Notes: generated by a model not told the origin, from the sequence alone. Shown: positions 1-18,300, numbered from the stretch's first letter. The stretch is DNA of 19,420 nucleotides from an uncultured Deinococcales bacterium (GCA_964247135.1 CAXTTL010000075.1:1-19420), one strand, 5' to 3'. Program-made: numbers and translations.

Positions 1-46
1 TCTTCAGAAACCTCAAAACGTGCTCGAGGTTTATTGGTCAGGTCAC

Positions 47-583
47 TCACGACTCTGACCGTAAGGTTTTACGTTTTCCTTTGGGCAGCAGGGCAGGGTG
101 CGGAGTCGAGCCTCTCCGTTTACGCGTCTTCATGGTGCGCCCAACAAATTCAACCGAACCAAAAGGCACCAAATTCAAAGGTGTTTGTTTATGTTGAACA
201 TCGACTGCCCAGTACGGATTTGTGCTTGCAACCGAAGGCTTGGATTCAACTGCGTTCTCAAAGTGAAACAATCCCGAACTGGCAACAGCAACAAAAACCA
301 GCAAAAGGCGCAAAAGAAAATTTGACTTGAGTCGCACGAGTATTGGGTATCTCAAGACCCTGCGAATTCGGCACAACAACACCCAACGCCCCAACAGCGC
401 TTGATGTTCAAACCCCAACCGTTCAGCCTCGAGCCAACCACTGTTAGAAGGCGTTTTAAGTACGTTTTGAAAAGCACACTCAACCTGGTCTCTTGACTTC
501 ACCACCATTTCGGCAGTCAACAACCGCGACGCAATGCCCGTGGCAACATAAACAAAGACCAAAAGAATCAAAATTAAAATCAT
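47..583 (-). CDS. Hypothetical membrane protein (178 aa)
   Basis: ATG preceded by AAAGGAAAGCC; hydrophobic N-terminus (MILILILLVFVYVATGIA) and a second hydrophobic stretch (FLLRLLLVFVAVASSGLF); basic C-terminus. Confidence 0.6.
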   Translation of the reverse strand: MILILILLVFVYVATGIASRLLTAEMVVKSRDQVECAFQNVLKTPSNSGWLEAERLGFEHQALLGRWVLLCRIRRVLRYPILVRLKSNFLLRLLLVFVAVASSGLFHFENAVESKPSVASTNPYWAVDVQHKQTPLNLVPFGSVEFVGRTMKTRKRRGSTPHPALLPKGKRKTLRSES

Positions 584-610
584 GGCTTTCCTTTCAGCAC
601 CGTGAGAAAC

Positions 611-898
611 TCAATTTCGTTTCAAGCTGTAACCAAAATCGGCAAGCGCCGCCTTCAGAACTTCAAAAGCCGGACTTGTACTGGGACACATCACGTCAGC
701 CCCCAGCACCCGACCCGAATTCTGCCCAAACGCGTAAACTCGAGTTTCATCCGCATGAAACGAACGAAACGCCTTCAACCCATTCAACTCGGCATCCTGC
801 CCGCGAGCTGCAACGTCAAGGGCAACTTGCAATTTTGCAGGCAAATCAGCGTCGTCCAGGTGGTCATTCAAAACCACCATCACCGTCATGTACCCCAT
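611..898 (-). CDS. Hypothetical protein (95 aa), phage/plasmid-like
   Basis: Start moved from the ORF-track 1153 to ATG 898, preceded by AAAGGGGTTTTC; MGYMTVMVVLNDHLDD...FHADETRV reads as a globular protein. Confidence 0.7.
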   Translation of the reverse strand: MGYMTVMVVLNDHLDDADLPAKLQVALDVAARGQDAELNGLKAFRSFHADETRVYAFGQNSGRVLGADVMCPSTSPAFEVLKAALADFGYSLKRN

Positions 899-925
899 GA
901 AAACCCCTTTCTGAAACCAACGAAA

Positions 926-947
926 GGGACTCGAGAGTCCGAGTCCC
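926..947 (-). repeat. Intergenic hairpin GGGACTCG-N6-CGAGTCCC
   Basis: Perfect 8-bp inverted repeat, followed by TTT on the minus strand; shares CCGAGTCCCAAA with the hairpin at 1622-1648. Confidence 0.7.
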
Positions 948-1023
948 AAACGCCTGTCGAAACACCAATTGCCGAAACATAACCTTTGAGCAACCATTAA
1001 ACCCAGAGTTTCAGTCCAAAAGC

Positions 1024-1260
1024 TCAAACCATTGAACTCGCTCGAGCCAACCAAGCCTCGAGCAACCACCACGCCCGAACCCACGGGGTTACAACCTGAC
1101 ACTGATCCCAACACGCGAACATCAACTCGCCCGTTGAAACCAAAGCCTGACAAAGAACCACCAGTTCACCAAAAACAGGCTCGATCAATTCACGACCAGC
1201 CCGCCACTGAGAAAACCAGACGTCAACACAAATTTCAATCGCATCAAATTTTGTTTTCAT
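1024..1260 (-). CDS. Hypothetical protein (78 aa), Trp/Cys-rich
   Basis: AAGG-N8-ATGAAA start at 1260, directly downstream of the 32-bp motif; co-oriented with its neighbours. Confidence 0.5.
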   Translation of the reverse strand: MKTKFDAIEICVDVWFSQWRAGRELIEPVFGELVVLCQALVSTGELMFACWDQCQVVTPWVRAWWLLEAWLARASSMV

Positions 1261-1268
1261 GCCATTCA

Positions 1269-1300
1269 CCTTGCTCGAGCAGCCTTACCGCTCGAGCTAC
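1269..1300 (-). repeat. 32-bp double-GCTCGAGC motif, copy 1
   Basis: CCTTGCTCGAGCAG-N6-CGCTCGAGCTAC; 28/32 identical to 2066-2097. Confidence 0.85.
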
Positions 1301-1344
1301 TGCTTTGGCATCTCAAAGCGATCAACGGCGTTTATGACCGAAGA

Positions 1345-1596
1345 TCAATTTTTAACCTGCGGAATCTCCAGCCTGTGAGCGCGCCAATCAACAGGCAAAG
1401 TCTCGAGTGACCTGGTTTGAGCCACGACAACTCGAGCGGGAACATCCAAATCAAAACCGTACTTGTCTTTGATCTCTGCCTTCAAACGTCGACGTTCTGC
1501 ACGAAGAAGCCGAATGAAATGCAACTCGGCAAAGACCACACCCAGTACCACCAACGCAAAACACAAACCGACCGTCCAATAATTTTGAGCACACAT
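1345..1596 (-). CDS. Hypothetical single-pass membrane protein (83 aa)
   Basis: GGGAGG-N5-ATG at 1596; TM segment WTVGLCFALVVLGVVFA followed by a charged helical segment. Confidence 0.65.
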   Translation of the reverse strand: MCAQNYWTVGLCFALVVLGVVFAELHFIRLLRAERRRLKAEIKDKYGFDLDVPARVVVAQTRSLETLPVDWRAHRLEIPQVKN

Positions 1597-1610
1597 AAGA
1601 ACCTCCCAAG

Positions 1611-1645
1611 AAAAGAAAAAAGGACCCGAGCGAATCCCGAGTCCC
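1611..1645 (-). terminator. Intrinsic-terminator-like hairpin downstream of the DUF4326 gene
   Basis: Minus strand reads GGACTCGGG-ATTCG-CTCGGGTCC-TTTTTTCTTTT: a 9-bp stem with two G-U pairs and a U tract. Confidence 0.65.
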
Positions 1646-1664
1646 AAAACGAAAACAAGTTTGA

Positions 1665-2057
1665 TTAAATTACAAAATACTCAGCATCAAAACGTTCCTT
1701 CAACACGCCAGCCACCACATCAGCATGACAAGCCTTTGGCGCACACCAACACGCTAACTTCAACACCCCTTCAGCAATCAGAATTTGATACAAACGTTCG
1801 AGTTCAATCAGCACCGCATTGCCCGTGCAATCCCCAGCCAACCAAGCATCCGCTTGCTTTCGCAAATATAGATCGAAACGGTCAATCACCTGCTTGCGCT
1901 GAACATCATTGTTGGCATCAGCGAGATAAAAAGGATTGCCGAGCGGACTTGCAGGCAAATCACCCTGCGCCCGACCCAAATACACAACCTTACCTGCCAA
2001 AGCCAAGAGACGAACGCCAGGATTGCGAATGTTTACCACTTCAATAATTGGTTTCAT
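1665..2057 (-). CDS. DUF4326 domain protein
   Basis: Family motifs VYLGR, SPLGNPF and LACWCAPKACHADV; start ATG 2057 (AAGG-N8-ATG), alternative 2063. Confidence 0.88.
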   Translation of the reverse strand: MKPIIEVVNIRNPGVRLLALAGKVVYLGRAQGDLPASPLGNPFYLADANNDVQRKQVIDRFDLYLRKQADAWLAGDCTGNAVLIELERLYQILIAEGVLKLACWCAPKACHADVVAGVLKERFDAEYFVI

Positions 2058-2065
2058 GTCCATGC

Positions 2066-2097
2066 CCTTGCTCGAGCAGGGTCATCGCTCGAGCTAC
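2066..2097 (-). repeat. 32-bp double-GCTCGAGC motif, copy 2
   Basis: CCTTGCTCGAGCAG-GGTCAT-CGCTCGAGCTAC, at the same offset to ATGAAA as copy 1. Confidence 0.85.
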
Positions 2098-2118
2098 GTT
2101 GTTCACCCAAAACCCGAA

Positions 2119-2529
2119 TCACAAAATCGTCATTGGATTCCAAGCATTGTACTCAGCCATCAAAACGAGCATCCAATTGCGCAACCGTTCCTCCTGGTCA
2201 TCGACACCCGCTCGCTGCAGTTGAACATGCAACGCCAACGAATAACCAAGCAAATACGTTAAACCATCAAACGCAATACAGTTCGTGCTAGGTACTTGCT
2301 CATCATGGCAAACTTTTCCCACAAGCTCAGCCAACAAACCCTGAGCTTCTGGATTCACAAACGCATCAACCCAATCAGACTCAATCAAAACATGCCCCAT
2401 TTGAACAAGGTCTTCAATCGCCCCCGCACTCTGCACCGCACTGCGTTGAACCACACTTAACCTTTGATCATGATGTGACAACACTGTAACCACAAAAGTT
2501 TCGTTTTCGTGAACTTTAAATAAATACAT
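2119..2529 (-). CDS. Hypothetical protein (about 136 aa)
   Basis: Open frame co-oriented with neighbours; ATG 2529 (MYLFKVHENE) preferred because the longer version runs through the 2563-2584 palindrome. Start uncertain. Confidence 0.6.
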   Translation of the reverse strand: MYLFKVHENETFVVTVLSHHDQRLSVVQRSAVQSAGAIEDLVQMGHVLIESDWVDAFVNPEAQGLLAELVGKVCHDEQVPSTNCIAFDGLTYLLGYSLALHVQLQRAGVDDQEERLRNWMLVLMAEYNAWNPMTIL

Positions 2530-2562
2530 ACAACTTCTTATGACCCGCAGACCAAAATAAAA

Positions 2563-2584
2563 GCTCGAGTTTTTAAACTCGAGC
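2563..2584. repeat. Intergenic inverted repeat GCTCGAGTTT-TT-AAACTCGAGC
   Basis: Perfect 10-bp arms with a 2-nt spacer. Confidence 0.8.
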
Positions 2585-2606
2585 CTCAAAACCAAATTCA
2601 AAAGCG

Positions 2607-3107
2607 CTAATGAATCAAATACTCAAGATCAAAACGCGAGATCAGGGCATCGTCCAAACGATCACACAACGCATCATGCTCCTCGTCAGAAAACTTTTTG
2701 TTCAAACAAACCAACACATCTTTGAACGGAATGTTCGCTCGAGCTTCGTACTTCCAATACTCGAGCTTCGCCCCGAACTCCTCAGCGTCAAAGCCCCAAG
2801 GGATTGGTCTAGGATTCTCAAACAACCAATCCGCCGAAAACAACAACACAGCCAGCTCGAGCAAGGACTCAAAACCAAAGCCGGGCAAAAACTCCAACCA
2901 ATAACTCACATTTGTATTGACATGATCGTTACGGCCAAGAACCCAACGATCCAACTTCGCAAGCCAACGCCCTTGAACCACATTGTCATGATCCAACATC
3001 AAAACATAGGCTTTGTCCTGGGGTTTACGATCACGCTCAGCAACCCAACGCGAGAACGGAACCTCAAACAAATTCGGGTCCACCCTGGCACCAAAAGGAA
3101 TTTGCAT
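2607..3107 (-). CDS. Hypothetical protein (166 aa)
   Basis: GGAGG upstream of ATG 3107 (MQIPFGARVDPNL); several CTCGAG sites fall in frame as Leu-Glu. Confidence 0.7.
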   Translation of the reverse strand: MQIPFGARVDPNLFEVPFSRWVAERDRKPQDKAYVLMLDHDNVVQGRWLAKLDRWVLGRNDHVNTNVSYWLEFLPGFGFESLLELAVLLFSADWLFENPRPIPWGFDAEEFGAKLEYWKYEARANIPFKDVLVCLNKKFSDEEHDALCDRLDDALISRFDLEYLIH

Positions 3108-3145
3108 TAAAGACCAACCTCCAATTTCAATTTTGCAAACGAAAA

Positions 3146-3490
3146 CTAATGCCAATACAAAACCACGGCATCGTTTGGATTAAGCAAATTAAGATACGCC
3201 CAAACTGCCTGGCTCAACACGCCCCAACAAATATCAGCCCGCTCTGCCACCCCAATCAAATCACAAACGGACACCTGTTTCAAATCTGCATCATAACGAT
3301 CACAATTCAAAACCCCATAACCACGAAATCCAAAACCAACGAAATTCTCAGCAACCAAAACACCAACCCGATCTTGTAAACCCAACACTTAAACCGTCAA
3401 AACCGCATCAGACCCGCAATGCAACCTCGAGTGAGAATAAACCTCCGAACCTGCCACGGTTACCGGCAACAACGACAATTCAACAGCCAT
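3146..3490 (-). pseudogene. Possible 114-codon gene interrupted by an in-frame TAA at 3389-3391
   Basis: AGGGGG-preceded ATG at 3490 reads MAVELSLL...AVLTV, then TAA, then continues in frame into the 3146-3388 ORF (VLGLQDRVG...). Confidence 0.35.
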
Positions 3491-3524
3491 CATCTACCCC
3501 CTAAAACGATCAAGATATTGCTGA

Positions 3525-3551
3525 CCTTGCTCGAGCGAACTTCTCGAGCTA
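3525..3551 (-). repeat. Degenerate copy 3 of the double-CTCGAG motif
   Basis: CCTTGCTCGAGC-GAACTT-CTCGAGCTA: same flanks, shorter spacer. Confidence 0.7.
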
Positions 3552-3569
3552 GTTTTTGAAATAAAGAAT

Positions 3570-4313
3570 CTAATTTTTTTGAACCCTCAAAATATTCTTA
3601 CCCTTCACCTTCACAACCCCACCAACCTCAACATCCAAACCAACCCGCTTAAACAACTCCGGCAAATTCTTCTTAAACCAACGCTCCCGAAACTGAACCT
3701 GAGACATCAACCAACCCGACTTCTCATCAGCACTCGCCGCACTCGCGCAAGCCGCCAACAACTCAAACTTAAAACTCAAAACCCGAAGACCCACCGCCTC
3801 CACCCGACGACCAAAACCACCCACCCGATCATTCAACCGCACCAACTCTCCACGCAAAACCCCAACGTCAGCCTCCGCCCTCAACGCTCGAGCCTCCACC
3901 GCCCCAAGCCGAACTAACAAAGCCGCAACATCAACAGGTGCCACAACCTCGAGATGTTGAACATCCTCGACCTCAGCGACCTCAACCACCTCAGTAACAT
4001 CAACCACCTCAACAGCAACCACAGACTCAAACGCCTCGCCCTCGAGCACCCCGACCCCGCCCGCCTCAAACACCGGCAACTCAGACTTCACCAACGCCAA
4101 CGCCCCAGCAAAAGACAAACCAGGCGTCCCCTCAGCCCTCAACATCAACACCGCACGCTCAATCCGCCCAGCCACCAACAACGGAACCTTACGCTCCGTC
4201 ACCCCAACCACCTCACCAAACAAACCCACATAACAATCCAAATACCGCTTAAACGTCTTGGGCGTCAAACCCAAACGATTCCGAAACTCCAAACGATCCA
4301 CCAACTCATCCAT
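3570..4313 (-). CDS. HTH (MerR-like) plus coiled-coil DNA-binding protein (about 247 aa)
   Basis: N-terminal LVDRLEFRNRLGLTPKTFKRY HTH-like motif, acidic Val/Glu linker, heptad-like segment VEARALRAEADVGVLRGELVRLNDRV; ATG 4313 preferred over TTG 4349. Confidence 0.65.
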   Translation of the reverse strand: MDELVDRLEFRNRLGLTPKTFKRYLDCYVGLFGEVVGVTERKVPLLVAGRIERAVLMLRAEGTPGLSFAGALALVKSELPVFEAGGVGVLEGEAFESVVAVEVVDVTEVVEVAEVEDVQHLEVVAPVDVAALLVRLGAVEARALRAEADVGVLRGELVRLNDRVGGFGRRVEAVGLRVLSFKFELLAACASAASADEKSGWLMSQVQFRERWFKKNLPELFKRVGLDVEVGGVVKVKGKNILRVQKN

Positions 4314-4388
4314 ACAACCCCAATCCAAACTCGAGAAACCAAAATTCAAAAGCGCAATTGAAAAAAGACATAATTCAAACCTCGAGAC

Positions 4389-4790
4389 TCAACCCCCAGA
4401 CATCAACCGATCCAATTTTTTTTCAACCCGCAACAACCCCACCCGGTAAAACTCCACATCCCGAACCAAACCCCGCAACAAACGAGACAACTCGAGCAAC
4501 ACAAACCCATCACCCGAATCCCGCCGCAACAACTCCAAAAAAGCCTCACGCAAACCCAACCCAGGACTGACCCGCAACTCATCACGAACCGCCCCAAACA
4601 ACCACAACACCCCCACCGGCAACAAACGCTCACCACGAGAACCAACCAAAAACTTCCGACCCGTCAGCTCAGACCACACCAACGAATACTTCCGCACCGA
4701 AACCACAGACATCGCCAACAACTCCGCAGCCTCCGTCGCCGAACACAAACCCGCCTCGAGATTCAAATTCTTAAGTTTGCTCACCACCAC
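4389..4790 (-). CDS. HTH (MerR-like) DNA-binding protein (about 133 aa)
   Basis: CSATEAAELLAMSVVSVRKY HTH, GSRGERLLP wing-like motif, C-terminal leucine heptads; three tandem GTG starts (4790/4787/4784). Confidence 0.7.
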   Translation of the reverse strand: MVVSKLKNLNLEAGLCSATEAAELLAMSVVSVRKYSLVWSELTGRKFLVGSRGERLLPVGVLWLFGAVRDELRVSPGLGLREAFLELLRRDSGDGFVLLELSRLLRGLVRDVEFYRVGLLRVEKKLDRLMSGG

Positions 4791-4838
4791 AACCTAAAAC
4801 AAAACCAAAAACGCAACGAGGAAAAACGACAAAAACCC

Positions 4839-5281
4839 AGTAAGCACCCACGAAAACCCTCTCACGCACAACGATTGCTCACAACACCCAAAAACATCAG
4901 ACCTGCACAACAAAAACCCCAGTAAGCACCCCCCCAAAAAACCATCCCCCAACCCTTTCCAACCAAAACCACCCTGCCTTCGCGAGTAAGCACCCCCCGA
5001 CAACCACGTACCACACAACAAAAATACCACCACCTGCCTACTCAAACTCGAGCAACCAACCCCAGTACGCACCCTGCCTACTCAAGCAAAAACCAGACAA
5101 AACACCTGCCTACTCGAGTAAGCACTCCACAACAACCACGCACCAGACAGCTTAAAGATCACTGAGAACTTTGGATTAACCCAAAACCAAAGGCTCAATA
5201 GGCAAAAGCCTAAAATACCCCTTGTCATACCCTAGAGACGAAAGGGGTGCGTACTAAAAAATCGGTGTTTTGAGTACGCAC
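4839..5281. repeat. Array of AGTANGCA boxes (iteron/centromere/operator-like)
   Basis: Forward copies at 4839, 4921, 4985, 5064, 5117 and 5273; reverse copies (TGCNTACT) at 5035, 5075, 5107 and 5248. Confidence 0.85.
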
Positions 5282-5286
5282 CCCTT
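5242..5286. repeat. 14-bp perfect inverted repeat (candidate oriV/oriT element)
   Basis: AAGGGGTGCGTACT (5242-5255) and AGTACGCACCCCTT (5273-5286), with 4 more A-T pairs inside after one mismatch. The structure is certain; the function is inferred. Confidence 0.8.
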
Positions 5287-5362
5287 GAAAATGGTTCGTC
5301 ACTTGCAGACGTTCGAGTCACGACAACGACTTAAGTTTTACAGTCACTTGGTTGTCTAACGG

Positions 5363-5563
5363 TCACTCAACCCCTTTAAAATTCGAGTTTGAAGCCTCGA
5401 GCAGTACCGCACAGACCTCGCCGTACAAACGCGTCCTGGAAGCGCCTTGTCCGGTTTCTACGGCGTACAAGAAGTACAAGAAGTTGTCGAGATTTTCACG
5501 AGTTTGATCTCTCGATTTTCTACAAGGGTTCTGAAGTTCCGACAAAAGCAAGTTCGTTTGCAT
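5363..5563 (-). CDS. Small hypothetical protein (uncertain)
   Basis: 66-aa ORF with in-frame CTCGAG (LLEA); no recognisable motif or strong RBS. Confidence 0.3.
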   Translation of the reverse strand: MQTNLLLSELQNPCRKSRDQTRENLDNFLYFLYAVETGQGASRTRLYGEVCAVLLEASNSNFKGVE

Positions 5564-5662
5564 CTTCAATAGTCAAACCTTTGCCAAGTACGAAGCTGTA
5601 AAGCAATTTTACCTGATCGTGCCGAGGTTCGGAGTCTACTTGCTGGTCGTTAGTTGCAACTT

Positions 5663-5703
5663 CTTGTTTAAATCAACACCATTTTTTGATACTTGTTTAA
5701 ATC
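5663..5703. repeat. 12-bp direct repeat CTTGTTTAAATC x2
   Basis: Copies at 5663-5674 and 5692-5703 in an AT-rich intergenic gap. Confidence 0.7.
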
Positions 5704-5718
5704 TTCTACGCGTTTTAT

Positions 5719-7535: not shown

Positions 7536-8522
7536 TTAGCTTGTCATTCTTTTGTACTCTACCGGAATCCCAATTGGTTCTCTTCCTGCAAGTAGTTCAT
7601 CTATTGCTGTATCGACGTTGGGATGAACAAGGTATTTGCCATAACCCAAAACCTCTATGGCTATATTGAATACACATTCGGCTGTGCGTTGTCGCGTTGC
7701 CATATCGATTTCACCAAGGATAATTCTATAGCGCTTGTTGTTCATCGCGCTTCGCAATGATGTACCGTGTACGGTCGCTACGATCCTTGTACCCTTTTGA
7801 CTGGCCTCTTGGGCGGTTTCGGCTTCGCTGGGATAAGCCAATTCATCCAAGACGATGGTTTTGGGACTGTAATTACCAACGATCTCGAGCATGGTCAGGT
7901 GTTGTTCTTTTCGTGACGGCACCATTTTGCGACGTGCTGGCGAGATCATGTGATGCGGCACGTCGCCGTCACCGCCGATTTCATTTGAGGTGTCACACAC
8001 CACACACTTGTCAGCTTCTTTGGGATCGGAGGCGATGATTCTCACCAGGTCGCGCAAGGTGGTGGTTTTGCCGACTGCTGGGGGTCCTATCACCAGGATG
8101 TTGTTTCGTTCAATGAATGGGCGTAAGCAGTCTGACACCCCTACAATAAACCGTCCGATTCGGATGGTGTATCCAATCACCCTATGTTGAGAATTGGTCA
8201 CCCTCGAGATTCGGTGCAGTGTTCCAGGGATGCCGATTCGTCCATCGTCTTTGGTCTTGCCGAATTTGGATTCCATCGTTTCGAGTTCTTCAGCGGTGAA
8301 GATTTTATCCACCTCGAGCATTTCACCTGACACCCAAAATTTCGGCTTGATGCCCACGTCAAGATGGATTTCATCAAGTCCAACTTCGTTTTCGATCACC
8401 ATGTTTTGAAGGTAACCGGGTAGCATTTTGACCAGCAGCTCGACCTTCTCAATTCCGAAAGCGCTGCCGCTCGAGATGGCAGGTGGGATGAGTGCTTTAT
8501 GTTGAACGCGTTCCAGGTTCAT
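7536..8522 (-). CDS. Ycf45/SpoIIIAA-like P-loop ATPase (328 aa)
   Basis: Walker A GPPAVGKTT, DTSNEIGGDGDVPH, Walker B IVLDEL, ATVHG, and N-terminal GTLHRIS and TIRIGR motifs typical of the family. Confidence 0.9.
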   Translation of the reverse strand: MNLERVQHKALIPPAISSGSAFGIEKVELLVKMLPGYLQNMVIENEVGLDEIHLDVGIKPKFWVSGEMLEVDKIFTAEELETMESKFGKTKDDGRIGIPGTLHRISRVTNSQHRVIGYTIRIGRFIVGVSDCLRPFIERNNILVIGPPAVGKTTTLRDLVRIIASDPKEADKCVVCDTSNEIGGDGDVPHHMISPARRKMVPSRKEQHLTMLEIVGNYSPKTIVLDELAYPSEAETAQEASQKGTRIVATVHGTSLRSAMNNKRYRIILGEIDMATRQRTAECVFNIAIEVLGYGKYLVHPNVDTAIDELLAGREPIGIPVEYKRMTS

Positions 8523-8845
8523 TCCTCGTTGCTCTTTTTGGTTGTCGCTTCATTGCTCTTTTTGCTGTTGAGGGCACGACGTATGTTTTGAAGTTCCGCA
8601 ACTCCCTCGCCAATGTTTTTGTTAAGTTCCCAGAACAGGTACAAGCCCTTTTCGATCGAGAACATGATCGCGGCAGTGATCCAGATCAGCACGCAACCGA
8701 GGACGCTGCCTTTGAACAGCAAGATGACTCCGACGAAAATGGCGATAACCAAGAGCATGGCTCTGGTGATCGCCCCCAGATTCCAGTACGTCCGTGGTGT
8801 AGATGTTTGGCGTGTTTTTGGTTTTGCTTGAGGGTTTGCAGTCAT
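8519..8845 (-). CDS. Small two-TM membrane protein (108 aa)
   Basis: Two hydrophobic helices then a coiled-coil-like tail; ATGA overlaps with both neighbours. Confidence 0.8.
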   Translation of the reverse strand: MTANPQAKPKTRQTSTPRTYWNLGAITRAMLLVIAIFVGVILLFKGSVLGCVLIWITAAIMFSIEKGLYLFWELNKNIGEGVAELQNIRRALNSKKSNEATTKKSNEE

Positions 8846-9354
8846 TTTAGATCCTTTGCCATTTTCCAGATTTGATTGAAGCTCGAGACTTGCGGGTACA
8901 CGCCTGGTTCGGGGATCGTGACTTGAACGCTGTTCATGGTGCTGGGCTTGTTGGTTTCAAGGTACGAGCTGGCGATCAATGTTTTGCGGTCGATGATCGC
9001 CTCCCATGCGGTAATCCGTTGCATGGTTTTGATGTAGATGTTTGGGCTGCGTTTGAGTTGCCCGAGGTATGAGTCTCGGGCTTTGAGATCGACCGCGTCC
9101 ACGATGATGAATGTCTTGACATTTTTGGCTCCCATGGCAATCAGCGCCCGAGCGACGTTGATCGATTTTAGCCCAGGGGTGATGATCAAGATTTCTTTGG
9201 TTGCCCGCGACAGCGCAGCCTCGAGTTCTGCTGGTGATTTCACTGGTTTTGGTATTCCGGTTCCAGTGGTTTGCGGGACTGGTTGTGGCGATGGTGTTTG
9301 GGCCAGCCCGATGGTGGACATCAAAATGACGGCGGGAAGGACGAACCATTTCAT
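8842..9354 (-). CDS. Secreted PLD/Nuc-fold protein lacking the HKD motif (paralog 3)
   Basis: Signal peptide; ALSRATKEILII...VARALIAM...VKTFIIVD...SYL...AIIDRKTLIASS pattern. Confidence 0.75.
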   Translation of the reverse strand: MKWFVLPAVILMSTIGLAQTPSPQPVPQTTGTGIPKPVKSPAELEAALSRATKEILIITPGLKSINVARALIAMGAKNVKTFIIVDAVDLKARDSYLGQLKRSPNIYIKTMQRITAWEAIIDRKTLIASSYLETNKPSTMNSVQVTIPEPGVYPQVSSFNQIWKMAKDLK

Positions 9355-9372
9355 GGGTAACCTCTTTGTGAC

Positions 9373-9900
9373 TTACTTGAGGCTGTTGGGGTCAAATGAA
9401 AACTTTGGGGCTTTTATCCAAATTGTTGAAAACCACTTGGTGATTCTTTGAGCCTCGAGCGTGTCGTTGATGGCGACGGTGTTGTTGACGGACAGCGGAC
9501 TTGGTGGTGAACCGAGTAGGTCGCCTTTAATCACGACGGCGTCATCGATCACCATTACGCAGTACCGTACATTTTTTGCCAGGCGTATTTCGAGGTTTTG
9601 CCACAGGCTGAGCGAAGGCGCGTAACTCGAGGGTCCTGCAGGGTTACGCGAATCCAGAATGATCATCTCTGGCACGCCTCGTTGTTGGTTGGCGTGAATC
9701 AAGGCGGTGGCGATTGGTTTGTGGCGCAACTCCGGGCAGACCAAAAGGATTTTGACGTGAGCCGAATCGATGATCGCGCTGAGTTCCGAGGCAGTGTTGA
9801 CTCGAGTGACGATGTTGTTCGCCCAAATTGGATTCGCCATTAAGCTCAGACTGATGATTGCGCTACCGAGCGCTAAGTTTTTACGGTGTGAAGTGGTCAT
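9373..9900 (-). CDS. Secreted PLD/Nuc-fold protein lacking the HKD motif (paralog 2)
   Basis: Signal peptide; IIDSAHVKILLV...IATALIHANQQRGV..MIILD...SY...VMVIDDAVVIKG pattern. Confidence 0.78.
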   Translation of the reverse strand: MTTSHRKNLALGSAIISLSLMANPIWANNIVTRVNTASELSAIIDSAHVKILLVCPELRHKPIATALIHANQQRGVPEMIILDSRNPAGPSSYAPSLSLWQNLEIRLAKNVRYCVMVIDDAVVIKGDLLGSPPSPLSVNNTVAINDTLEAQRITKWFSTIWIKAPKFSFDPNSLK

Positions 9901-10390
9901 AGGCGGTGGTTTGCAATCCTTTCAAAAACGGTTGGAAGGTCATGATGCTTTCTTGGGTGAACCTGATTTCAATTGAGCTTTGCCAAATGGCGTCGCCGCT
10001 GAACATGATGTTGGGTTTGTTGTTGATCCATAAAAAAGGTTCGAGTTTGACGTCTTGTTTGGCGATCCGTATCTCGATGTTGCGCACGAAGATGGTGGCG
10101 TTGAACAGCCTGGTGACTTCGGGTGATTTGTTGGTCATGGCTTCACGCTCGAGAAGCACAATAATTTGAGGTGCGCTGCCGGCAGCTTTGAGCAGTGCGT
10201 CGGTCAGTTGTGGGTTTTCAATGTCTGGCGCTTGGTAGAGAATGATGTTTTTGGTGTTGCCCACCATCTCGAGGTATTTGGCGGTTGGCATTGGAAGGGT
10301 CGGCAGTGATTGGATTGATCGCGCTGTGGCTTCTTGGGCAAAGGCGAACTCGAGTCCAAACATCAACACCGGCAACAGAGCCATTTTCAT
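9881..10390 (-). CDS. Secreted PLD/Nuc-fold-like protein, most diverged (paralog 1)
   Basis: Signal peptide (AFA-Q); MVGNTKNIILY...LTDALLKAA...IIVLLE...NIEIRIAK aligns with paralog 2 (NLEIRLAK). Confidence 0.68.
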   Translation of the reverse strand: MKMALLPVLMFGLEFAFAQEATARSIQSLPTLPMPTAKYLEMVGNTKNIILYQAPDIENPQLTDALLKAAGSAPQIIVLLEREAMTNKSPEVTRLFNATIFVRNIEIRIAKQDVKLEPFLWINNKPNIMFSGDAIWQSSIEIRFTQESIMTFQPFLKGLQTTAYDHFTP

Positions 10391-12723
10391 ACTGCCTCTG
10401 CTTGTTTTTCGTTGATCAGGAACATGCTTGGAACGACCGGAATGGACACCAGCATGGTTTTTTCTTGGTTCAGGTCGCGTTCGATGAGTTCATGTTTGCT
10501 GTTTTCAGCAACGAGTTTTTTGGCATTTTCGGGGCTGATGTAAACGTAAGGGAATTCAAACAAGCCGAGCGCCTTTTTGTCTGGTTTGTTGGCGGTGTGC
10601 CCAACCAGCGCTTGACGGTTGCTGTTGACCCAACGCAACAAACGGTGGTTGGAACCGTGTTGTTTGAGCGCATCCTTGTATTTTTCGATTCGTGACAGAC
10701 CGATTTTGGTGATCTTGTAGCCCTCTTCAGTCTCCTCGACCCAACTTTTGACTTTCCATTCCTCGAGTTCGCTTGGCACGTTCAGGTGGCTGATATCGAT
10801 TTTCTTGATCAGCACGGTTGAAATGCCTTTTTTGCTGACATCGATGTTCATCGGCACGATTGAGCGCAGCATCAGTTCAATCCAGGTTCTAAAACTCTCC
10901 GCGATAGGGTTTTTGATCATTGTGCTAAAGTCAATCGGGCTTTGCGGCTCGATGCGGTTATTTTCTGTTTTGGCATAATCGGTGATGGTGTATTTTTGTT
11001 TGATTTTGATGTACATCTCGTGGAACGGATGTTGTGGGTTTTCCATTGGCGTCAAATGCACCCGTGTCCACTGGGTGCCAACGAATTTGACGACGCCATC
11101 GGGAAATTCTGCCATCGCCTCCGGGCTGAGCAAAGACCGTTTGGCTTCGCGGTAATTGGTTGAATTGCTGTGCTCTCTGGTCATGAATCCACCACGTACC
11201 GATTCGCCCTCAGAGATTTCGGTCACGGTTTCAAACCCAATGTGTCCAGACCAATACTGGGCTTGCTCGAGCGAGAAGGATTTTGGAAACAAGACCATTT
11301 GCCCGAAGTTGTTGTTCATCATCGCGGCGAGCTTGGTCGAGCCGTAACGGTCTGCTACTTGTTCGGTGTTTTGCACCACGATGTGCATGGCGACGCCTCG
11401 AGAGCGTAGTGTCGCCAGGTTGCGGTCAATGTTGGGCAGTTCGCCAAAACTCGGAAATTCGTCCATGTAGAGCGAGAGGTGAACTGGCAGTTTGCCCTTG
11501 TGGGTGTTGACCACTTTTAGAATTGAGGTGTCAATGGCTCGCTTGAGGAGTTGTAACAGCGCCGAGGCGTTGCCATTTTCGATTTCGTGTTGCGGCAAGC
11601 CCATGAACAACAGCCCTGGGCGCTCGAGGAAATCTTCGATGCTGAGCGTTTCTTCGGGCAAACCTTGGCTGGTCGCACGGTTGACGTTGTCATCGGTAAA
11701 GATTTGTAAGTCACCGGCCAGACCCGTACACAAGCCGATAAAAATATCGTCTTTTAAATCGATGATGCTCGAGAGCAAACGCAGCACCTCTGGACGGTGT
11801 TTGATATAACTTCTGGTCGCAGCCGCATTGTTTAAAAGCCAATAAATCTCCGCGATCTCGCTTTTGCCCTCTTTGGCGAAACCGTAAATCAAGCCTGCCA
11901 GCAGGGCGCGTTCGTTGTTGTGATAAAAAGGCACGATTTTTTGTCTGGTTTCTTTGGGACGAAAGATGTTGGCAATATCGAACGCGTCCTTGTAGCTGTG
12001 AATGTCTTTGATCAGTGGCAAGCGCAGACTTTTGGGATGGAACGGGATGTAGACTTTCACCTCGCGTCCCCAGGCTTTGAAGAAACTGATTGAATCGAGC
12101 AGTCCTTGATCGGCGTCTGGAAATTTGAGGTCAAAGACCACGGCGCAGTGACCGCTCATCGCGTCGGCCAGGATGTTGGGTTTTAGGTACGTGCTTGTTT
12201 TACCCGCGCCGATACCGCCGACCACCAGTGTATGGGCGCAGCGCCTCGAGAGCGGGACGCGCAGTTGAACTTCATTTTGTCTGGTTTTGTCTACGAGCAC
12301 ACCGTAGTGTCCATTCAGCTTGATGTCGGGCGACCCTTCAAAATATTCCTTGAGTTCACCCATGACGGCCCAACGTCCTTCACCTGGGTTTTTGCCCGCT
12401 GGACGCTGGTTGAGTTGGCGTTTGGCGTATGCGGCGAAGACCAGCGGGATCACCATGGAGTACCAGTAATATTCTGGAACTCGAGCCATCCAAGCCTTGC
12501 CGATCATGTTGGTACAATTGGCGTTGATAAAGCATTTGAGTTTCATTACCGATTCGTTGGTGACGTTTAGATATTTACCCCAATTTTTCAGCCACATTTC
12601 GTGTGCAACGCTGTTGAAGGCGTTAAAACTCAAATATCCTACGCCAGCGATGATGGCAATGAATCCTAGAATGCCCAGCCACATCATCAGTTTGAACTTG
12701 AGGGCGTTTTTTGGCGACGACAT
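10387..12723 (-). CDS. virD4: Type IV coupling protein VirD4/TraG (778 aa)
   Basis: Two N-terminal TM segments, GEGRWA motif, Walker A GGIGAGKT, Walker B LYMDEFPSFG, ATLRSRGV..VVQNTEQ..RYG motif. Confidence 0.93.
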   Translation of the reverse strand: MSSPKNALKFKLMMWLGILGFIAIIAGVGYLSFNAFNSVAHEMWLKNWGKYLNVTNESVMKLKCFINANCTNMIGKAWMARVPEYYWYSMVIPLVFAAYAKRQLNQRPAGKNPGEGRWAVMGELKEYFEGSPDIKLNGHYGVLVDKTRQNEVQLRVPLSRRCAHTLVVGGIGAGKTSTYLKPNILADAMSGHCAVVFDLKFPDADQGLLDSISFFKAWGREVKVYIPFHPKSLRLPLIKDIHSYKDAFDIANIFRPKETRQKIVPFYHNNERALLAGLIYGFAKEGKSEIAEIYWLLNNAAATRSYIKHRPEVLRLLSSIIDLKDDIFIGLCTGLAGDLQIFTDDNVNRATSQGLPEETLSIEDFLERPGLLFMGLPQHEIENGNASALLQLLKRAIDTSILKVVNTHKGKLPVHLSLYMDEFPSFGELPNIDRNLATLRSRGVAMHIVVQNTEQVADRYGSTKLAAMMNNNFGQMVLFPKSFSLEQAQYWSGHIGFETVTEISEGESVRGGFMTREHSNSTNYREAKRSLLSPEAMAEFPDGVVKFVGTQWTRVHLTPMENPQHPFHEMYIKIKQKYTITDYAKTENNRIEPQSPIDFSTMIKNPIAESFRTWIELMLRSIVPMNIDVSKKGISTVLIKKIDISHLNVPSELEEWKVKSWVEETEEGYKITKIGLSRIEKYKDALKQHGSNHRLLRWVNSNRQALVGHTANKPDKKALGLFEFPYVYISPENAKKLVAENSKHELIERDLNQEKTMLVSIPVVPSMFLINEKQAEAV

Positions 12724-12725
12724 CG

Positions 12726-14252: not shown

Positions 14253-14284
14253 GACGTTCCTTTCTCGAGCGATAAGTGAGTCAA

Positions 14285-15301
14285 TTACCAGTTTGGAGAC
14301 ATGGCCGATGTGTCCTTTGTCTTTAGGATCAATTCGCCCAGTGTTTGGGTTTGAACTTGGATTTCGTTGCCTTTGTCTTCGGCATGTCCCGTCATCTCGG
14401 TGAGTGCCAGGTCGAAACTGCCTGCCTCTTCTTGGCTTTTGGCAACAACGTCACTGGCGATGATTCCAAGTTCCTGCGTGGTTAACGCTTGTTGTTGAAC
14501 TTGGGCTTTGATGGCACCAACCACGTTGGCATTCGTCGCTGCGTTTTCGCTGATCATCGAGGCGATCCCGCGAGTCATGGTTTGAACCGCCGATCTGGTG
14601 CTGACGGCGGTGTTTGAATCCTCGATCAGTTTTGGCGCGACACCTTTGAGTGGACCTTCGTCGATACTCATGTCCAACTGAAGTTTTTCTGCGGTGTCGT
14701 CGCCAGCCAGTTTTGCAAAACCGTCTTTAGATTGCTTCACCGCTCCGACCGCTTGAGCCGCCGCTTCAAAGTTTTGGCTTTGGGTCAGTTTGTCGTGCAA
14801 TTGCTGGTTGGTGACAATTGGATTGACGCGTACCAAGTCCCATTGATGCGCGAGCACGCTATTGGTGGGAAATGGGTTGGTTTGACCGATGATCGCGTCG
14901 ATGCCATTTTTGAGTGCCTCGGTCGCCAGCCGTGATATCTCATTTTCAAACATGTAGGGCGCACTCGAGATCGTTTTATCCACTTGATTTAGGATGTTCG
15001 ATATTTCAGATGTGTCCACCTTGCTGCCAAGGTATTGTAAACCGTTTTTTAAGAGATCGCCTCCCAAATTCTGCAAGAATGACGTGCCCTCTTTTTCGGC
15101 ATTGGTCACCCAGTATTGGACGGTGTTGTAAATGGATGTCAAGCGACAAATCCACTTCCAGTTATCACCAACATAACTGCCGATGGTGCAGCCGGTGGCG
15201 AGGATGGTTTGGAGGTCTTGGGCTTTGGCTTGGCTCGAGAATCCAAATGCGCAAAAGATCATGATGACCGCTAGAATTTTTTGGAACGATTTGGATTTCA
15301 T
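14285..15301 (-). CDS. Secreted helical T4SS component, VirB5/TrbJ-like (338 aa)
   Basis: Signal peptide (AKA-Q), Gln/Ala-rich helical composition, position between virB4 and virB6. The family call rests mainly on synteny. Confidence 0.6.
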   Translation of the reverse strand: MKSKSFQKILAVIMIFCAFGFSSQAKAQDLQTILATGCTIGSYVGDNWKWICRLTSIYNTVQYWVTNAEKEGTSFLQNLGGDLLKNGLQYLGSKVDTSEISNILNQVDKTISSAPYMFENEISRLATEALKNGIDAIIGQTNPFPTNSVLAHQWDLVRVNPIVTNQQLHDKLTQSQNFEAAAQAVGAVKQSKDGFAKLAGDDTAEKLQLDMSIDEGPLKGVAPKLIEDSNTAVSTRSAVQTMTRGIASMISENAATNANVVGAIKAQVQQQALTTQELGIIASDVVAKSQEEAGSFDLALTEMTGHAEDKGNEIQVQTQTLGELILKTKDTSAMSPNW

Positions 15302-17938: not shown

Positions 17939-17947
17939 TGTGTTCCT

Positions 17948-18265: not shown

Positions 18266-18300
18266 GATTTTCCAGGCTTTCTGGTAACGGAATGAATGGC

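What the first reader, a model, noticed from the sequence alone, without database searches (positions are those of the whole stretch)
3100..5160. Extreme, graded strand skew ending sharply at the repeat array
Hand counts of G+T per 60-nt line on the + strand: 25 (line 601), 24 (2641), 17 (3181), 14 (4021), 12 (4201), 10 (4801), 11 (4921), 19 (5161), 29 (5341). The skew covers coding and non-coding DNA and pushes the proteins toward Val/Gly/Leu/Phe. It is not a coding-strand effect, because the tra genes are also on the minus strand and lean the other way. A G+T-rich strand with a gradient is the known signature of long single-stranded exposure (C-to-T and A-to-G deamination, as on the mitochondrial H-strand). 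Inference: the minus strand is displaced as ssDNA starting near 5150-5290, by strand-displacement or rolling-circle replication or by conjugative transfer.
Basis: partly seen in the sequence, partly recalled or inferred. Interest (0 to 1): 0.8.

Follow-up and report, generated by a model that had tools for sequence, protein, structure and literature searches.

The report
One-sided strand-composition gradient at plasmid hairpin
On a conjugative-plasmid contig of an uncultured Deinococcus/Thermus-group bacterium, one DNA strand becomes almost pure G+T at freely mutable sites beside a hairpin-and-repeat cluster and fades over several kilobases, most likely the mutational footprint of a one-directional start site for DNA copying.

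Summary
All 9 of its hand counts are exact. The + strand of 3001-5000 has G+T 0.262. That is the most extreme of 8827 2-kb windows in the 5.09-Mb genome, 8 SD from the mean.

- **Site of the skew.** It is greatest at synonymous sites. Minus-strand G+T at four-fold sites is 0.92-0.96 in the two genes next to the repeats, against 0.476 +/- 0.057 genome-wide.
- **Type of skew.** Purine content is unchanged, so this is a pure transition-type (amino/keto) skew.
- **Shape.** It is graded (rho -0.83 over 28 bins). It ends at 5216-5245, abutting a 19-bp hairpin built from the repeat motif.
- **Not an artefact or foreign DNA.** The host's CTCGAG signature persists inside it. An independent metagenome protein, 88% identical, has the same composition.

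Best reading (about 0.45): the footprint of one-directional DNA synthesis starting at the hairpin. The cause would be a proofreading-less Pol I, a long-lived displaced strand, or both. No initiator, relaxase or nick site was found, so oriV, oriT and R-loop readings stay open.

The scan has noted similar footprints on two other DNAs.

The parts
1..3388 (-). Graded, weaker part of the skew. It holds seven co-oriented minus-strand ORFs: 47-583, 611-1153, 1345-1647, 1665-2063 (DUF4326), 2119-2601, 2607-3155 and 3146-3388.
   Evidence: Four-fold-site G+T of the coding (minus) strand rises toward the edge: 0.64, 0.70, 0.67, 0.69, 0.79, 0.75, 0.78. For bins more than 1700 nt from position 5150, rho = -0.58, p = 0.007, n = 20. 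DUF4326 matches at E 6.8e-13 with its invariant motifs kept. ORF 611-1153 matches phrog_7147 at 2e-8.
3389..3569 (.). Intergenic dip where the skew steps down.
   Evidence: Minus-strand G+T is 0.63 here. The best single step in third-position G+T falls 1895-2037 nt from position 5150 (0.92 against 0.71). The ssDNA fold is unremarkable (z = -1.0; 34 of 200 shuffles fold as well).
3570..4349 (-). ORF of 259 aa (the public gene call is 247 aa), with codon use saturated by the skew. A MerR-type helix-turn-helix followed by long helices is a lead only.
   Evidence: G+T by codon position is 0.73 / 0.59 / 0.93. At four-fold sites: A 0.02, C 0.06, G 0.46, T 0.46. It has no homolog but itself among the 8000 candidates scored and no Pfam, NCBIfam or PHROG hit. 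Atlas score 0.85 to MerR_1 clusters. The AF2 model is unusable (pLDDT 35.7).
4389..4790 (-). ORF of 133 aa next to the repeat array. A MerR-type DNA-binding protein is a lead only.
   Evidence: G+T by codon position is 0.74 / 0.66 / 0.93. At four-fold sites: A 0.00, C 0.04. P0002, from an independent 1413-bp JGI/IMG contig, is 115/130 identical and has the same composition. Atlas score 0.87 to MerR_1 clusters. AF2 pLDDT is 45.8.
4791..5221 (.). Non-coding, skewed repeat array. It holds direct copies of AGTA[A/C]GCACC(C) at 4839, 4921, 4985 and 5064, plus a one-off variant at 5117. A second motif, CCTGCCTACTC, sits at 5033, 5073 and 5105, with a variant at 4973.
   Evidence: Repeat families D1, D3 and D6. 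The 10-mer occurs 6 times within 4839-5282 of this contig and 7 times as singles in the other 5.07 Mb. Minus-strand G+T is 0.81 over 4791-5140.
5216..5245 (.). Edge of the skew, and the inferred start point of the asymmetric process.
   Evidence: The maximum-likelihood change point is 5222, with a 2-lnL support interval of 5216-5245. The + strand G+T is 0.22 to the left and 0.54 to the right.
5242..5286 (.). Hairpin of 19-nt arms (95% complementary, 7-nt loop), made of two inverted copies of the repeat motif.
   Evidence: Inverted repeat I1. It dominates the ssDNA fold of 5141-5420 on the minus strand (z = -3.8; 0 of 200 shuffles fold as well).
5223..5718 (-). Unskewed non-coding stretch upstream of the edge. 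It holds GTCAC four times (5298, 5317, 5343, 5362) and GATTTAAACAAG twice (minus strand, 5703-5692 and 5674-5663).
   Evidence: Read from the sequence. The minus-strand transcript folds better than shuffles (z = -2.7; 1 of 100 as good). The plus-strand transcript does not (z = -1.2; 12 of 100). No Pfam hit for the two short ORFs inside. No Rfam match.
7536..18750 (-). Type IV secretion / conjugation genes, serving as the unskewed comparison set on the same strand. They include an ATPase (7536-8522), two PLD-like ORFs, the coupling protein (10387-12723), a VirB4/TraC-like ATPase (15302-17938) and a TrbC/VirB2 pilin (18301-18750).
   Evidence: Pfam hits. Four-fold G+T of the coding strand is 0.31-0.43. 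Third-position G+T is flat with no mirror gradient.

Best explanation
The hairpin and repeat cluster at about 5216-5290 marks a site where DNA synthesis repeatedly starts and runs in one direction only, toward lower coordinates. The most likely identity is a vegetative plasmid origin that begins with a long asymmetric phase.

In nearly every round over the first 1.7 kb, and with falling probability out to 5 kb or more, one or both of two things would happen. The new minus strand is made by the host's Taq-type Pol I, which lacks proofreading. Or the old minus strand stays displaced as single-stranded DNA (a D-loop, possibly R-loop-primed). Both give A>G and C>T changes on the minus strand.

Over evolutionary time this drove neutral sites to 92-96% G+T and dragged the two nearest proteins toward Val/Gly/Leu/Phe.

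- **Shown:** the skew, its peak at synonymous sites, its transition-type nature, its gradient, its sharp edge at the hairpin, its long residence in this host, and its presence in a relative.
- **Inferred:** that replication rather than another strand-opening process is the cause, its direction, and the roles of Pol I and ssDNA.
For: 1. **Magnitude beyond ordinary processes.** Four-fold G+T is 0.92-0.96, against a maximum of 0.653 among 1368 long ORFs of the genome. Ordinary transcription or fork asymmetry in this host does not reach this.
2. **Mutational, transition-type.** Only 28 of 394 third positions in 3570-4790 carry A or C on the minus strand, and 6 of those 28 lie in CTCGAG. Purine fraction is 0.47-0.50 in all three zones while G+T runs 0.37 / 0.235 / 0.55.
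3. **One-sided and graded.** Rho = -0.83, p = 3.5e-8 over 28 bins. The exponential fit has R2 0.75, the linear 0.72 and the single step 0.70. The right side is flat.
4. **Edge at a structured site.** The edge is within 25 nt of a hairpin built from the clustered repeat motif.
5. **Experimental precedent.** In ColE1 copied by error-prone Pol I, the leading strand gains A>G (32 against 9 T>C) and C>T (140 against 29 G>A). Mutation frequency decays exponentially from the RNA/DNA switch, and Pol I is replaced over at least 1.3 kb (PMC3167613: abstract and sections 14-16 read).
6. **Host polymerase.** The host polA encodes 5'-3' exonuclease, Taq-exonuc (PF09281) and polymerase domains, and no PF01612 proofreading domain. 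That Taq-type Pol I lacks proofreading is recalled, not tested here.
7. **mtDNA analogy.** The G+T-rich strand is the one that would be displaced (PMC3269012, passages read).
8. **Long residence.** There are 17 CTCGAG copies in 2564-5113 despite the skew, and the genome is 24.7-fold enriched for this motif. Relative P0002 shares the composition.
Against: - No replication initiator family was found in the contig. The two genes beside the repeats look like MerR-type DNA binders at best.
- There are no DnaA boxes near the edge: 4 matches in the window against 3.5 expected, none within 4700-5800.
- There is no Rfam match to plasmid primer or antisense RNAs.
- Repeat spacing of 53-82 nt is unlike classical phased iterons. 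The array could be an operator or a centromere.
- The direction of substitutions was not polarised, because no related DNA was available.
- The profile has a step at 3389-3569 that a transcription unit would explain as well.
- 0 of 20 loci around homologous ATPase genes in the phylum show anything similar, and neither do the first 50 kb of the nearest complete plasmid. The feature is not a general property of this plasmid lineage.
Confidence: 0.45

Rival explanations
1. The site is a nick site: the origin of conjugative transfer, or a rolling-circle double-strand origin. The minus strand is the transferred or displaced strand, with its 5' end just left of the hairpin. The first-displaced DNA stays single-stranded longest and deaminates.
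For: - A hairpin immediately 5' of the edge on the minus strand is the usual geometry of nick sites (recalled).
- The site lies between the type IV secretion genes and a run of small co-oriented genes. In the nearest complete plasmid, Thermus sp. NZ_CP092444, the matching run includes SSB, ArdC-like and Rad52 genes.
- Contig C176 may adjoin the left end. It carries a UvrD-type helicase and NADAR and ART-PolyVal domains, which are typical of transfer-associated regions.
- The structured minus strand upstream could be a single-strand origin.
Against: - No relaxase or HUH Rep was found in the contig. The only Replic_Relax hit in the genome is on C17.
- Exposure of a whole transferred or rolled-off strand should decline over the length of the plasmid. 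Here the odds of G+T fall more than five-fold within 2 kb.
- By analogy with F (recalled), early genes use the transferred strand as template. That would make the A+C-rich + strand the transferred one and place oriT elsewhere.
- Transfer is rare compared with vegetative copying.
Confidence: 0.2
2. The cause is transcription alone. A strong promoter near the hairpin drives leftward transcription. The G-rich non-template (minus) strand forms persistent R-loops and mutates while unpaired, which reinforces the G richness. No DNA synthesis starts here.
For: - Every ORF in the skewed zone has the G+T-rich strand as sense strand.
- The skew steps down at an intergenic gap, 3389-3569.
- GC skew of about 0.5-0.6 on the non-template strand favours R-loops (general knowledge; PMC6442632 seen in a search listing only).
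Against: - No gene among 1368 long ORFs exceeds 0.653, so ordinary transcription in this host does not do this.
- The 430-nt non-coding repeat array upstream of the first gene is skewed too (0.81).
- No sigma-70-like promoter was found on the minus strand between 4790 and 5720. This is weak evidence.
- The tra genes on the same strand are unskewed.
Confidence: 0.15
3. Selection on composition rather than mutation bias. The region is kept A+C-rich on one strand and G+T-rich on the other so that either single strand, or the mRNA, is nearly free of secondary structure or of target sites for host defences.
For: Over 1221 nt, the zone-A strands fold far more weakly as ssDNA than a control of equal length from the tra region. 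The values are -47.6 kcal/mol (+) and -76.3 kcal/mol (-), against -153.7 kcal/mol. A preprint reports unexplained GC-skew variance in the leading regions of plasmids (10.1101/2025.04.03.647016, passages read).
Against: - A smooth decline over 5 kb or more with unchanged purine content is what a mutational gradient predicts. Selection gives no reason to spare purine/pyrimidine balance.
- The six-base palindrome CTCGAG is not avoided.
- The proteins pay a visible cost.
Confidence: 0.08
4. Artefact or foreign block: a chimeric assembly, damaged template, or recently inserted DNA of alien composition.
For: The contig comes from a fragmented metagenome bin: 386 contigs, 84% complete. No sequencing run could be listed to check read support.
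Against: - The repeat motif occurs on both sides of the edge.
- The host-specific CTCGAG enrichment and the host's avoided palindromes hold on both sides.
- The skew follows codon positions of real genes.
- It is graded.
- An independent JGI/IMG contig encodes an 88%-identical protein of the same composition.
Confidence: 0.02

Closest known systems
Strand-asymmetry gradient of vertebrate mitochondrial DNA (strand-displacement replication; H strand G+T-rich)
   Same: One strand is enriched in G+T through C>T and A>G-type pressure. The skew is strongest at neutral sites and depends on position relative to an origin (PMC3269012, passages read). Here this matches the four-fold-site peak, the constant purine content and the gradient.
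   Different: This is a bacterial plasmid. The gradient is local (a plateau of about 1.7 kb with a tail to 5-10 kb) rather than genome-wide. A is depleted at least as much as C (0-2% against 4-6% at four-fold sites). No second-strand origin was identified, and single-stranded intermediates are not shown.
Pol I mutational footprint of ColE1 plasmids (Allen et al. 2011, PMC3167613)
   Same: The footprint is one-sided and starts sharply at the start of DNA synthesis. The leading strand has an excess of A>G and C>T. Decay with distance is exponential-like, on a kb scale.
   Different: That footprint was produced in the laboratory with an engineered error-prone Pol I, over a few rounds. Here it would be a natural, equilibrium composition. 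No RNA II/RNA I-like RNA was recognised, a repeat array is present, and the reach is longer.
Leading-strand G>C, T>A skew of bacterial chromosomes and theta plasmids (PMC2804667 and PMC3269012, passages read; PMC8941118, seen in a search listing only)
   Same: The sign matches: the strand running 5'>3' away from the presumed origin is G+T-rich.
   Different: The magnitude is an order larger (typical GC skew is about 2.5%, from the PMC8941118 listing abstract; here it is 50-60%). The skew is local and one-sided, with no mirror arm on the right.
Nick-initiated systems: rolling-circle plasmids and conjugative oriT with a leading region
   Same: A hairpin sits next to the start of the affected strand. 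The site lies between transfer genes and a run of small co-oriented genes.
   Different: There is no relaxase or Rep in the contig. The steep local decay is not expected from whole-strand exposure. Gene orientation is opposite to the F-type rule if the G+T strand is the transferred one (recalled).
Two earlier findings of this scan on other DNA (e1-5754986, giant plasmid-like element; e1-5741504, marine jumbo phage)
   Same: Both describe extreme local strand skew fading with distance from a repeat-filled, gene-poor site, read as a strand-opening start site.
   Different: Those are described as a mirror-image flip (giant plasmid) or a 1.2-2.2 kb G-depleted island (phage). Here the skew is strictly one-sided and of the amino/keto type. 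Neither was re-examined here.

Membership tests
mtDNA-type strand-displacement mutational gradient | Skew strongest at neutral (four-fold) sites | tested here: met
   G+T is 0.92-0.96 at four-fold sites, against 0.59-0.66 at second positions. Only 28 of 394 third positions are exceptions.
mtDNA-type strand-displacement mutational gradient | Both pyrimidine (C>T) and purine (A>G) components on the same strand, with purine content unchanged | tested here: met
   T/(T+C) is 0.88-0.90 and G/(G+A) is 0.95-1.00, against 0.33 and 0.67 genome-wide. Purine fraction is 0.47-0.50 in all zones. This is composition only; substitution direction was not polarised.
mtDNA-type strand-displacement mutational gradient | Monotonic dependence on distance from the origin | tested here: met
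   Rho = -0.83 over 28 bins. The distal part alone gives rho = -0.58, p = 0.007.
mtDNA-type strand-displacement mutational gradient | Displaced single-stranded intermediates and a defined second-strand origin | not testable with these tools
   This needs 2D gels, ssDNA mapping or 5'-end mapping. The candidate dip at 3389-3569 has no special fold.
ColE1-type (Pol I-started, RNA-primed) origin | Recognisable primer and antisense RNA genes | tested here: not met
   0 Rfam matches in the window at E <= 1. The upstream minus-strand RNA is only modestly structured (z = -2.7).
ColE1-type (Pol I-started, RNA-primed) origin | One-directional footprint starting sharply, with a leading-strand A>G and C>T excess that decays over kb | tested here: inconclusive
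   The shape and sign fit (PMC3167613). Only equilibrium composition could be read, not mutations.
ColE1-type (Pol I-started, RNA-primed) origin | Dependence on host Pol I | not testable with these tools
   The host has one family-A polymerase with a Taq-exonuc domain. Dependence needs genetics.
Iteron-plus-Rep theta origin | Cluster of directly repeated binding sites | tested here: met
   Six copies of the 10-mer lie within 4839-5282, against 7 single copies in the other 5.07 Mb. Spacing is irregular (53-82 nt).
Iteron-plus-Rep theta origin | Adjacent gene for a recognised replication initiator | tested here: not met
   No Pfam, NCBIfam or PHROG family for 3570-4349 or 4389-4790. There are only MerR-type leads. 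The contig is incomplete.
Iteron-plus-Rep theta origin | DnaA boxes at the origin | tested here: not met
   4 matches with at most 1 mismatch against 3.5 expected, none within 4700-5800. The consensus used is the E. coli one, recalled.
Conjugative oriT / rolling-circle nick site | Inverted repeat beside the nick on the displaced strand | tested here: inconclusive
   The hairpin at 5242-5286 abuts the edge. No nick was mapped, and no reference nick motif was available from a tool.
Conjugative oriT / rolling-circle nick site | Cognate relaxase or HUH Rep encoded by the element | tested here: not met
   None among the ORFs scanned. The element continues beyond the contig, so absence from the plasmid is not shown.

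The most novel reading that the evidence does not exclude
A natural bacterial plasmid carries a saturated, one-sided mutational gradient stronger than that of vertebrate mitochondrial DNA. The gradient records, in sequence alone, the start point, direction and reach of a long asymmetric phase of DNA synthesis: a plateau of about 1.7 kb and a tail to 5-10 kb. That phase would be a long D-loop, a Pol I stretch, or both, and has not been described for bacterial plasmids. With the two similar cases the scan noted on other DNA, such footprints could be a general, sequence-only marker of strand-opening start sites in mobile elements.
Probability: 0.4. Interest if true: 0.75.

Novelty: new variant of a known kind. 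Interest (0 to 1): 0.66.

Why it matters
If the reading holds, composition alone locates an origin to about 30 nt. It also gives the direction and shows how far the asymmetric phase reaches, on a plasmid of an uncultured lineage where no replication gene is recognisable.

It would be a natural counterpart of the laboratory Pol I footprint of ColE1 and of the mitochondrial gradient. It shows how far local mutation pressure can push real genes: about half of the residues in the two nearest proteins are Val, Gly, Leu, Phe, Trp or Cys.

The case also offers a test bed for two questions. How strong can strand-specific mutation become before genes are lost? And which force keeps the host's CTCGAG motif intact against that pressure?

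My five literature searches found no description of such a local, near-saturated gradient in a bacterial plasmid. Subscription journals are not covered by that library.

Tried and rejected
- **Related DNA for polarising substitutions.**
  - blastn against PLSDB found no match.
  - A DNA search of the 18 other genomes of the family found only one 38-nt match, at E 4.5e-4.
  - Protein-seeded scans of genome contigs and metagenome contigs found nothing.
  - The viral-contig scan gave one 18-residue match. I rejected it as chance: that locus has G+T 0.48-0.56 throughout.
- **Sequencing runs.** None was listed for 2600-6600, and no RNA holder was listed.
- **Structure.** AF2 models of the 259-aa ORF (pLDDT 35.7) and the 133-aa ORF (pLDDT 45.8 with a two-row alignment) were too poor to search, so no fold search was run.
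- **Long A/C-only runs as a search pattern.** Rejected, because the longest run in the contig is 26 nt and equal or longer runs occur elsewhere in the genome.
- **Circularity.** No terminal overlap of 11-200 nt was found.
- **Other skewed windows of the genome** (C10, C221, C25, C23, C200). These are short and far weaker: G+T 0.32-0.67 in 1-kb windows.
- **Protein-level polarisation with DUF4326 homologs.** This gene's composition is the highest of 18 (0.371, against 0.313 +/- 0.036). There is no site-wise bias, however. Of the 54 columns where the window's protein differs from the majority of the 17 homologs, it has 14 keto-class residues and the majority residues include 12. The test is uninformative at that distance from the edge.
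- **Enzymatic hypermutation by a DNA deaminase.** Considered and set aside. No deaminase family was hit in the ORFs scanned. A smooth 5-kb gradient with equal purine and pyrimidine components is not what a sequence-context-specific enzyme is expected to leave. It was not excluded.
- **Supplementary files and figures of the papers.** Not seen. Figure S1 of the preprint 10.1101/2025.04.03.647016 (GC skew in the first 50 kb of plasmid groups) may bear on how unusual this is.


Full report
**What the window is.** The window is a whole contig (C75, 19,420 bp) of a 386-contig, 84%-complete metagenome bin. Three results here fit that placement:
- The nearest plasmid coupling proteins are from Thermus, Deinococcus and Allomeiothermus.
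- The host Pol I carries the Taq-type exonuclease domain.
- The genome-wide CTCGAG excess is reproduced: 33,925 copies, 24.7 times expectation.

The right two-thirds of the contig carry conjugation genes, all on the minus strand. They include a TrbC/VirB2 pilin, a VirB4/TraC-like ATPase, the coupling protein, two PLD-like ORFs and a further ATPase. The left 5.2 kb hold small minus-strand ORFs, mostly without known family.

- In 300-nt windows the + strand has GC skew -0.43 to -0.64 and AT skew +0.17 to +0.64 from 3151 to 5100. Both return to about zero by 5251-5550.
- Among 8827 2-kb windows of the genome (mean G+T 0.502, sd 0.030), the six most deviant are all in this contig. The extreme is 0.262 at 3001-5000, 8 sd from the mean.
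- The weaker part of the skew extends to the left end of the contig, so the feature spans 1-5222 rather than 3100-5160.

**It is a neutral-site, transition-type skew on real genes.**
- For the two ORFs next to the repeats (3570-4349 and 4389-4790), G+T of the coding (minus) strand is 0.73-0.74 at first positions, 0.59-0.66 at second and 0.93 at third. This period-3 pattern also identifies the true frames, since stop codons are rare in all frames here.
- At four-fold sites, A is 0.00-0.02 and C is 0.04-0.06, so G+T is 0.92-0.96. For 1368 long ORFs of the genome the mean is 0.476, sd 0.057, maximum 0.653.
- Only 28 of 394 third positions carry A or C on the minus strand, and 6 of these lie in CTCGAG motifs.
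- Purine content of the + strand is 0.47-0.50 in all three zones while G+T is 0.37, 0.235 and 0.55. The asymmetry is purely amino/keto, as an excess of C>T and A>G on one strand would give.
- The 430-nt non-coding repeat array is skewed too (0.81).

**Protein composition follows.** V+G+L+F+W+C is 0.48-0.51 and K+N+T+P+Q+H is 0.09-0.135 in the two nearest proteins, against 0.32 and 0.255 genome-wide. Farther away the proteins are barely touched. The DUF4326 gene at 1665-2063 keeps every invariant motif of its family. Its composition is only the highest of 18 (0.371, against 0.313 +/- 0.036), with no site-wise bias.

**It is graded and one-sided, with a sharp edge.**
- Third-position G+T in 28 bins of 50 codons falls with distance from the edge (rho -0.83, p 3.5e-8).
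- An exponential fit (base 0.56, decay length 2.8 kb, R2 0.75) does slightly better than a line (0.72) or a single step (0.70).
- The part beyond 1.7 kb is still graded on its own (rho -0.58, p 0.007, n 20).
- The profile has a near-saturated plateau (0.84-1.00) to about 1.9 kb and a step down at the intergenic gap 3389-3569. It then declines slowly to 0.58-0.64 at the contig end.
- To the right of the edge the same strand shows 0.30-0.60 per bin, with no trend and no mirror arm.
- A change-point analysis puts the edge at 5222, with support interval 5216-5245.

**What sits at the edge.**
- A hairpin with 19-nt arms (5242-5286) abuts the edge. Each arm contains the motif GGTGCGTACT.
- The same 10-mer, allowing one variable letter, occurs four more times in direct orientation at 4839-5073. 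Only seven single copies occur in the other 5.07 Mb.
- A second motif, CCTGCCTACTC, is interleaved at 5033, 5073 and 5105.
- The minus strand of 5141-5420 folds far better than shuffles as ssDNA (z -3.8; 0 of 200 shuffles as good).
- The unskewed non-coding 5223-5718 upstream is modestly structured as a minus-strand RNA (z -2.7; 1 of 100) but not as a plus-strand RNA (z -1.2).
- It also holds four GTCAC words and a 12-nt direct repeat.
- No Rfam family, DnaA box or consensus promoter marks the site.

**Not an artefact, not foreign, not a one-off event.**
- The repeat motif spans the edge.
- The host's CTCGAG signature is kept inside the skew: 17 copies in 2564-5113, about 6.7 per kb. By my arithmetic, the local base composition alone would give about 0.1 per kb (positions).
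- The host's avoided palindromes are absent from the contig.
- A full HMMER search of 1.84 billion representatives found one true relative of the 133-aa ORF. This is P0002, on a 1413-bp JGI/IMG contig, 115 of 130 residues identical. Its composition is the same (V+G+L+F+W+C 0.508).
- The skew is therefore shared by lineages that have since diverged by 12% in protein sequence.

**How special it is.**
- Homologs of the neighbouring ATPase occur in 98 of 364 genomes of the phylum.
- I fetched up to 20 kb around 20 of those places. They were chosen from the best-scoring hits and the nearest kin, not at random.
- None has a comparable block. 1-kb windows with |G+T - 0.5| > 0.12 number 0 in 17 loci, 1 in two loci and 2 in one. 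The largest deviation is 0.17.
- The nearest complete plasmid is Thermus sp. NZ_CP092444 (coupling protein 32.7% identical). It has the same gene order, followed by a run of small same-strand genes including SSB, ArdC-like and Rad52. Its G+T stays within 0.46-0.59 over the first 50,000 of 55,957 bp.

**Mechanism.** The sign, the one-sidedness, the sharp start and the kb-scale decay are those of a process that opens the duplex at the hairpin and moves left, treating the minus strand differently. Two known processes do exactly this at a one-directional origin, and they would add up.

1. *Pol I leading-strand synthesis.* In ColE1 copied by an error-prone Pol I, the leading strand gains A>G (32 against 9 T>C) and C>T (140 against 29 G>A). 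[quoted passage not shown]
   - The host here has a single family-A polymerase with 5'-3' exonuclease, Taq-exonuc and polymerase domains, and no PF01612 proofreading domain.
   - That Taq-type Pol I lacks proofreading is recalled knowledge, not tested here.
2. *Deamination of the displaced strand.* The displaced parental strand of a D-loop has the minus-strand sequence and would deaminate (C>U, A>hypoxanthine), as in the mitochondrial model (PMC3269012, passages read).

I therefore put a one-directional replication start first, at 0.45.

A nick-initiated process (oriT or rolling circle) fits the hairpin geometry and the position between transfer genes and a leading-region-like gene run. It lacks a relaxase in the contig, and it predicts exposure that declines over the whole molecule rather than a five-fold drop in odds within 2 kb. 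I give it 0.2.

Transcription with persistent R-loops fits the gene orientation and the step at the intergenic gap. It does not explain the skewed non-coding array upstream of the first gene, or why no other gene of the genome comes near. I give it 0.15. It merges with the origin reading if the R-loop primes DNA synthesis.

Selection for structure-free strands is possible. Zone-A strands fold at -47.6 and -76.3 kcal/mol, against -153.7 for a control of equal length. It does not predict constant purine content or a smooth gradient. I give it 0.08.

**A lead on the left neighbour.**
- The first 80 nt of the contig resemble the last 80 nt of contig C176 (10,235 bp) in the same orientation. By eye they are roughly 85-90% alike, and 25-mers are shared. 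This looks like a dispersed repeat at which the assembly broke.
- C176 carries minus-strand genes for a UvrD-type helicase, a NADAR domain and an ART-PolyVal-like domain.
- The helicase gene nearest the shared end has four-fold G+T 0.67, the level at the left end of the window. The next genes have 0.49, 0.49, 0.39, 0.37, 0.31 and 0.34.
- If the two contigs are neighbours, the gradient runs almost monotonically from 0.95 to the plasmid baseline of about 0.37 over about 10 kb (rho -0.91, 61 bins). Adjacency is inferred, not shown.

**Comparison with what is known.** The closest analogues are the mitochondrial gradient, the ColE1 Pol I footprint and the ordinary leading-strand skew. This case shares their sign and logic. 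It differs in being natural, local, one-sided and near saturation in a bacterial plasmid.

Five literature searches found no such description. A preprint notes only a higher variance of GC skew in plasmid leading regions and says this has been little discussed (10.1101/2025.04.03.647016, passages read).

The scan itself has noted comparable local footprints on a giant plasmid-like element and on a jumbo phage (e1-5754986 and e1-5741504; not re-examined here). I class this finding as a new variant of a known kind.

Noticed in passing
window 2564-5113 (17 copies); whole genome: The host's hyper-abundant palindrome CTCGAG (24.7 times expectation genome-wide) keeps its full density of about 6.7 per kb inside the most skewed DNA, where G and T are scarce on the + strand. 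Whatever maintains this motif overrides the strand-specific pressure. GAGCTC (0 copies), GGGCCC (1) and CGGCCG (3) are almost absent from the 5.09-Mb genome.
   Followed up: partly
G000 contig C176 (L060) 1-10235, and window 1-80: The tail of C176 shares a similar end repeat with the window's head, in the same orientation. C176 carries UvrD-type helicase, NADAR and ART-PolyVal-like genes on the same strand. Its four-fold-site G+T continues the window's gradient down to baseline (0.67, 0.49, 0.49, 0.39, 0.37, 0.31, 0.34). It is probably the left neighbour of the window.
   Followed up: partly
window 6683-7411 (-): An SRAP (SOS-response-associated peptidase) domain ORF lies 1.5 kb to the right of the edge. 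Only profile positions 57-187 of 214 match (E 1.4e-14), and the ORF does not begin with the usual Met-Cys. SRAP proteins are known (recalled) to shield abasic sites in single-stranded DNA, which would suit an element with long-lived ssDNA.
   Followed up: no
window 5298-5366 and 5663-5703: GTCAC occurs four times at spacings of 19, 26 and 19 nt just right of the hairpin. GATTTAAACAAG occurs twice, 29 nt apart, in an A+T-rich stretch. Both lie in the unskewed non-coding DNA and are candidate protein-binding or unwinding elements.
   Followed up: no
L055 (Thermus sp. plasmid NZ_CP092444.1) 9764-39320: This plasmid has the same order of conjugation genes as the window (pilin, VirB4-like, two large unknowns, coupling protein, ATPase). 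A long run of small same-strand genes follows, including a sigma-70-domain protein, SSB, ArdC-like and Rad52. This suggests the window's left part is the equivalent establishment or leading-type region.
   Followed up: partly
window 8842-9354 and 9373-9900 (-): Two adjacent PLD-like (PLDc_2) ORFs of about 170 aa sit inside the conjugation gene cluster. Both score just below Pfam's cut-off (23.2 and 24.0 bits against 27).
   Followed up: no
G000:C33 (L059 343-3027, -): The host's only family-A DNA polymerase has the Taq-exonuc domain (PF09281, E 3e-30) in place of a recognisable 3'-5' proofreading domain.
   Followed up: yes
window 3579-4570 (+): Long + strand ORFs overlapping the real genes (for example 3579-3917, 3954-4361 and 4358-4570) come from the scarcity of T and G, which makes stop codons rare in all six frames. 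They should not be annotated as genes.
   Followed up: yes
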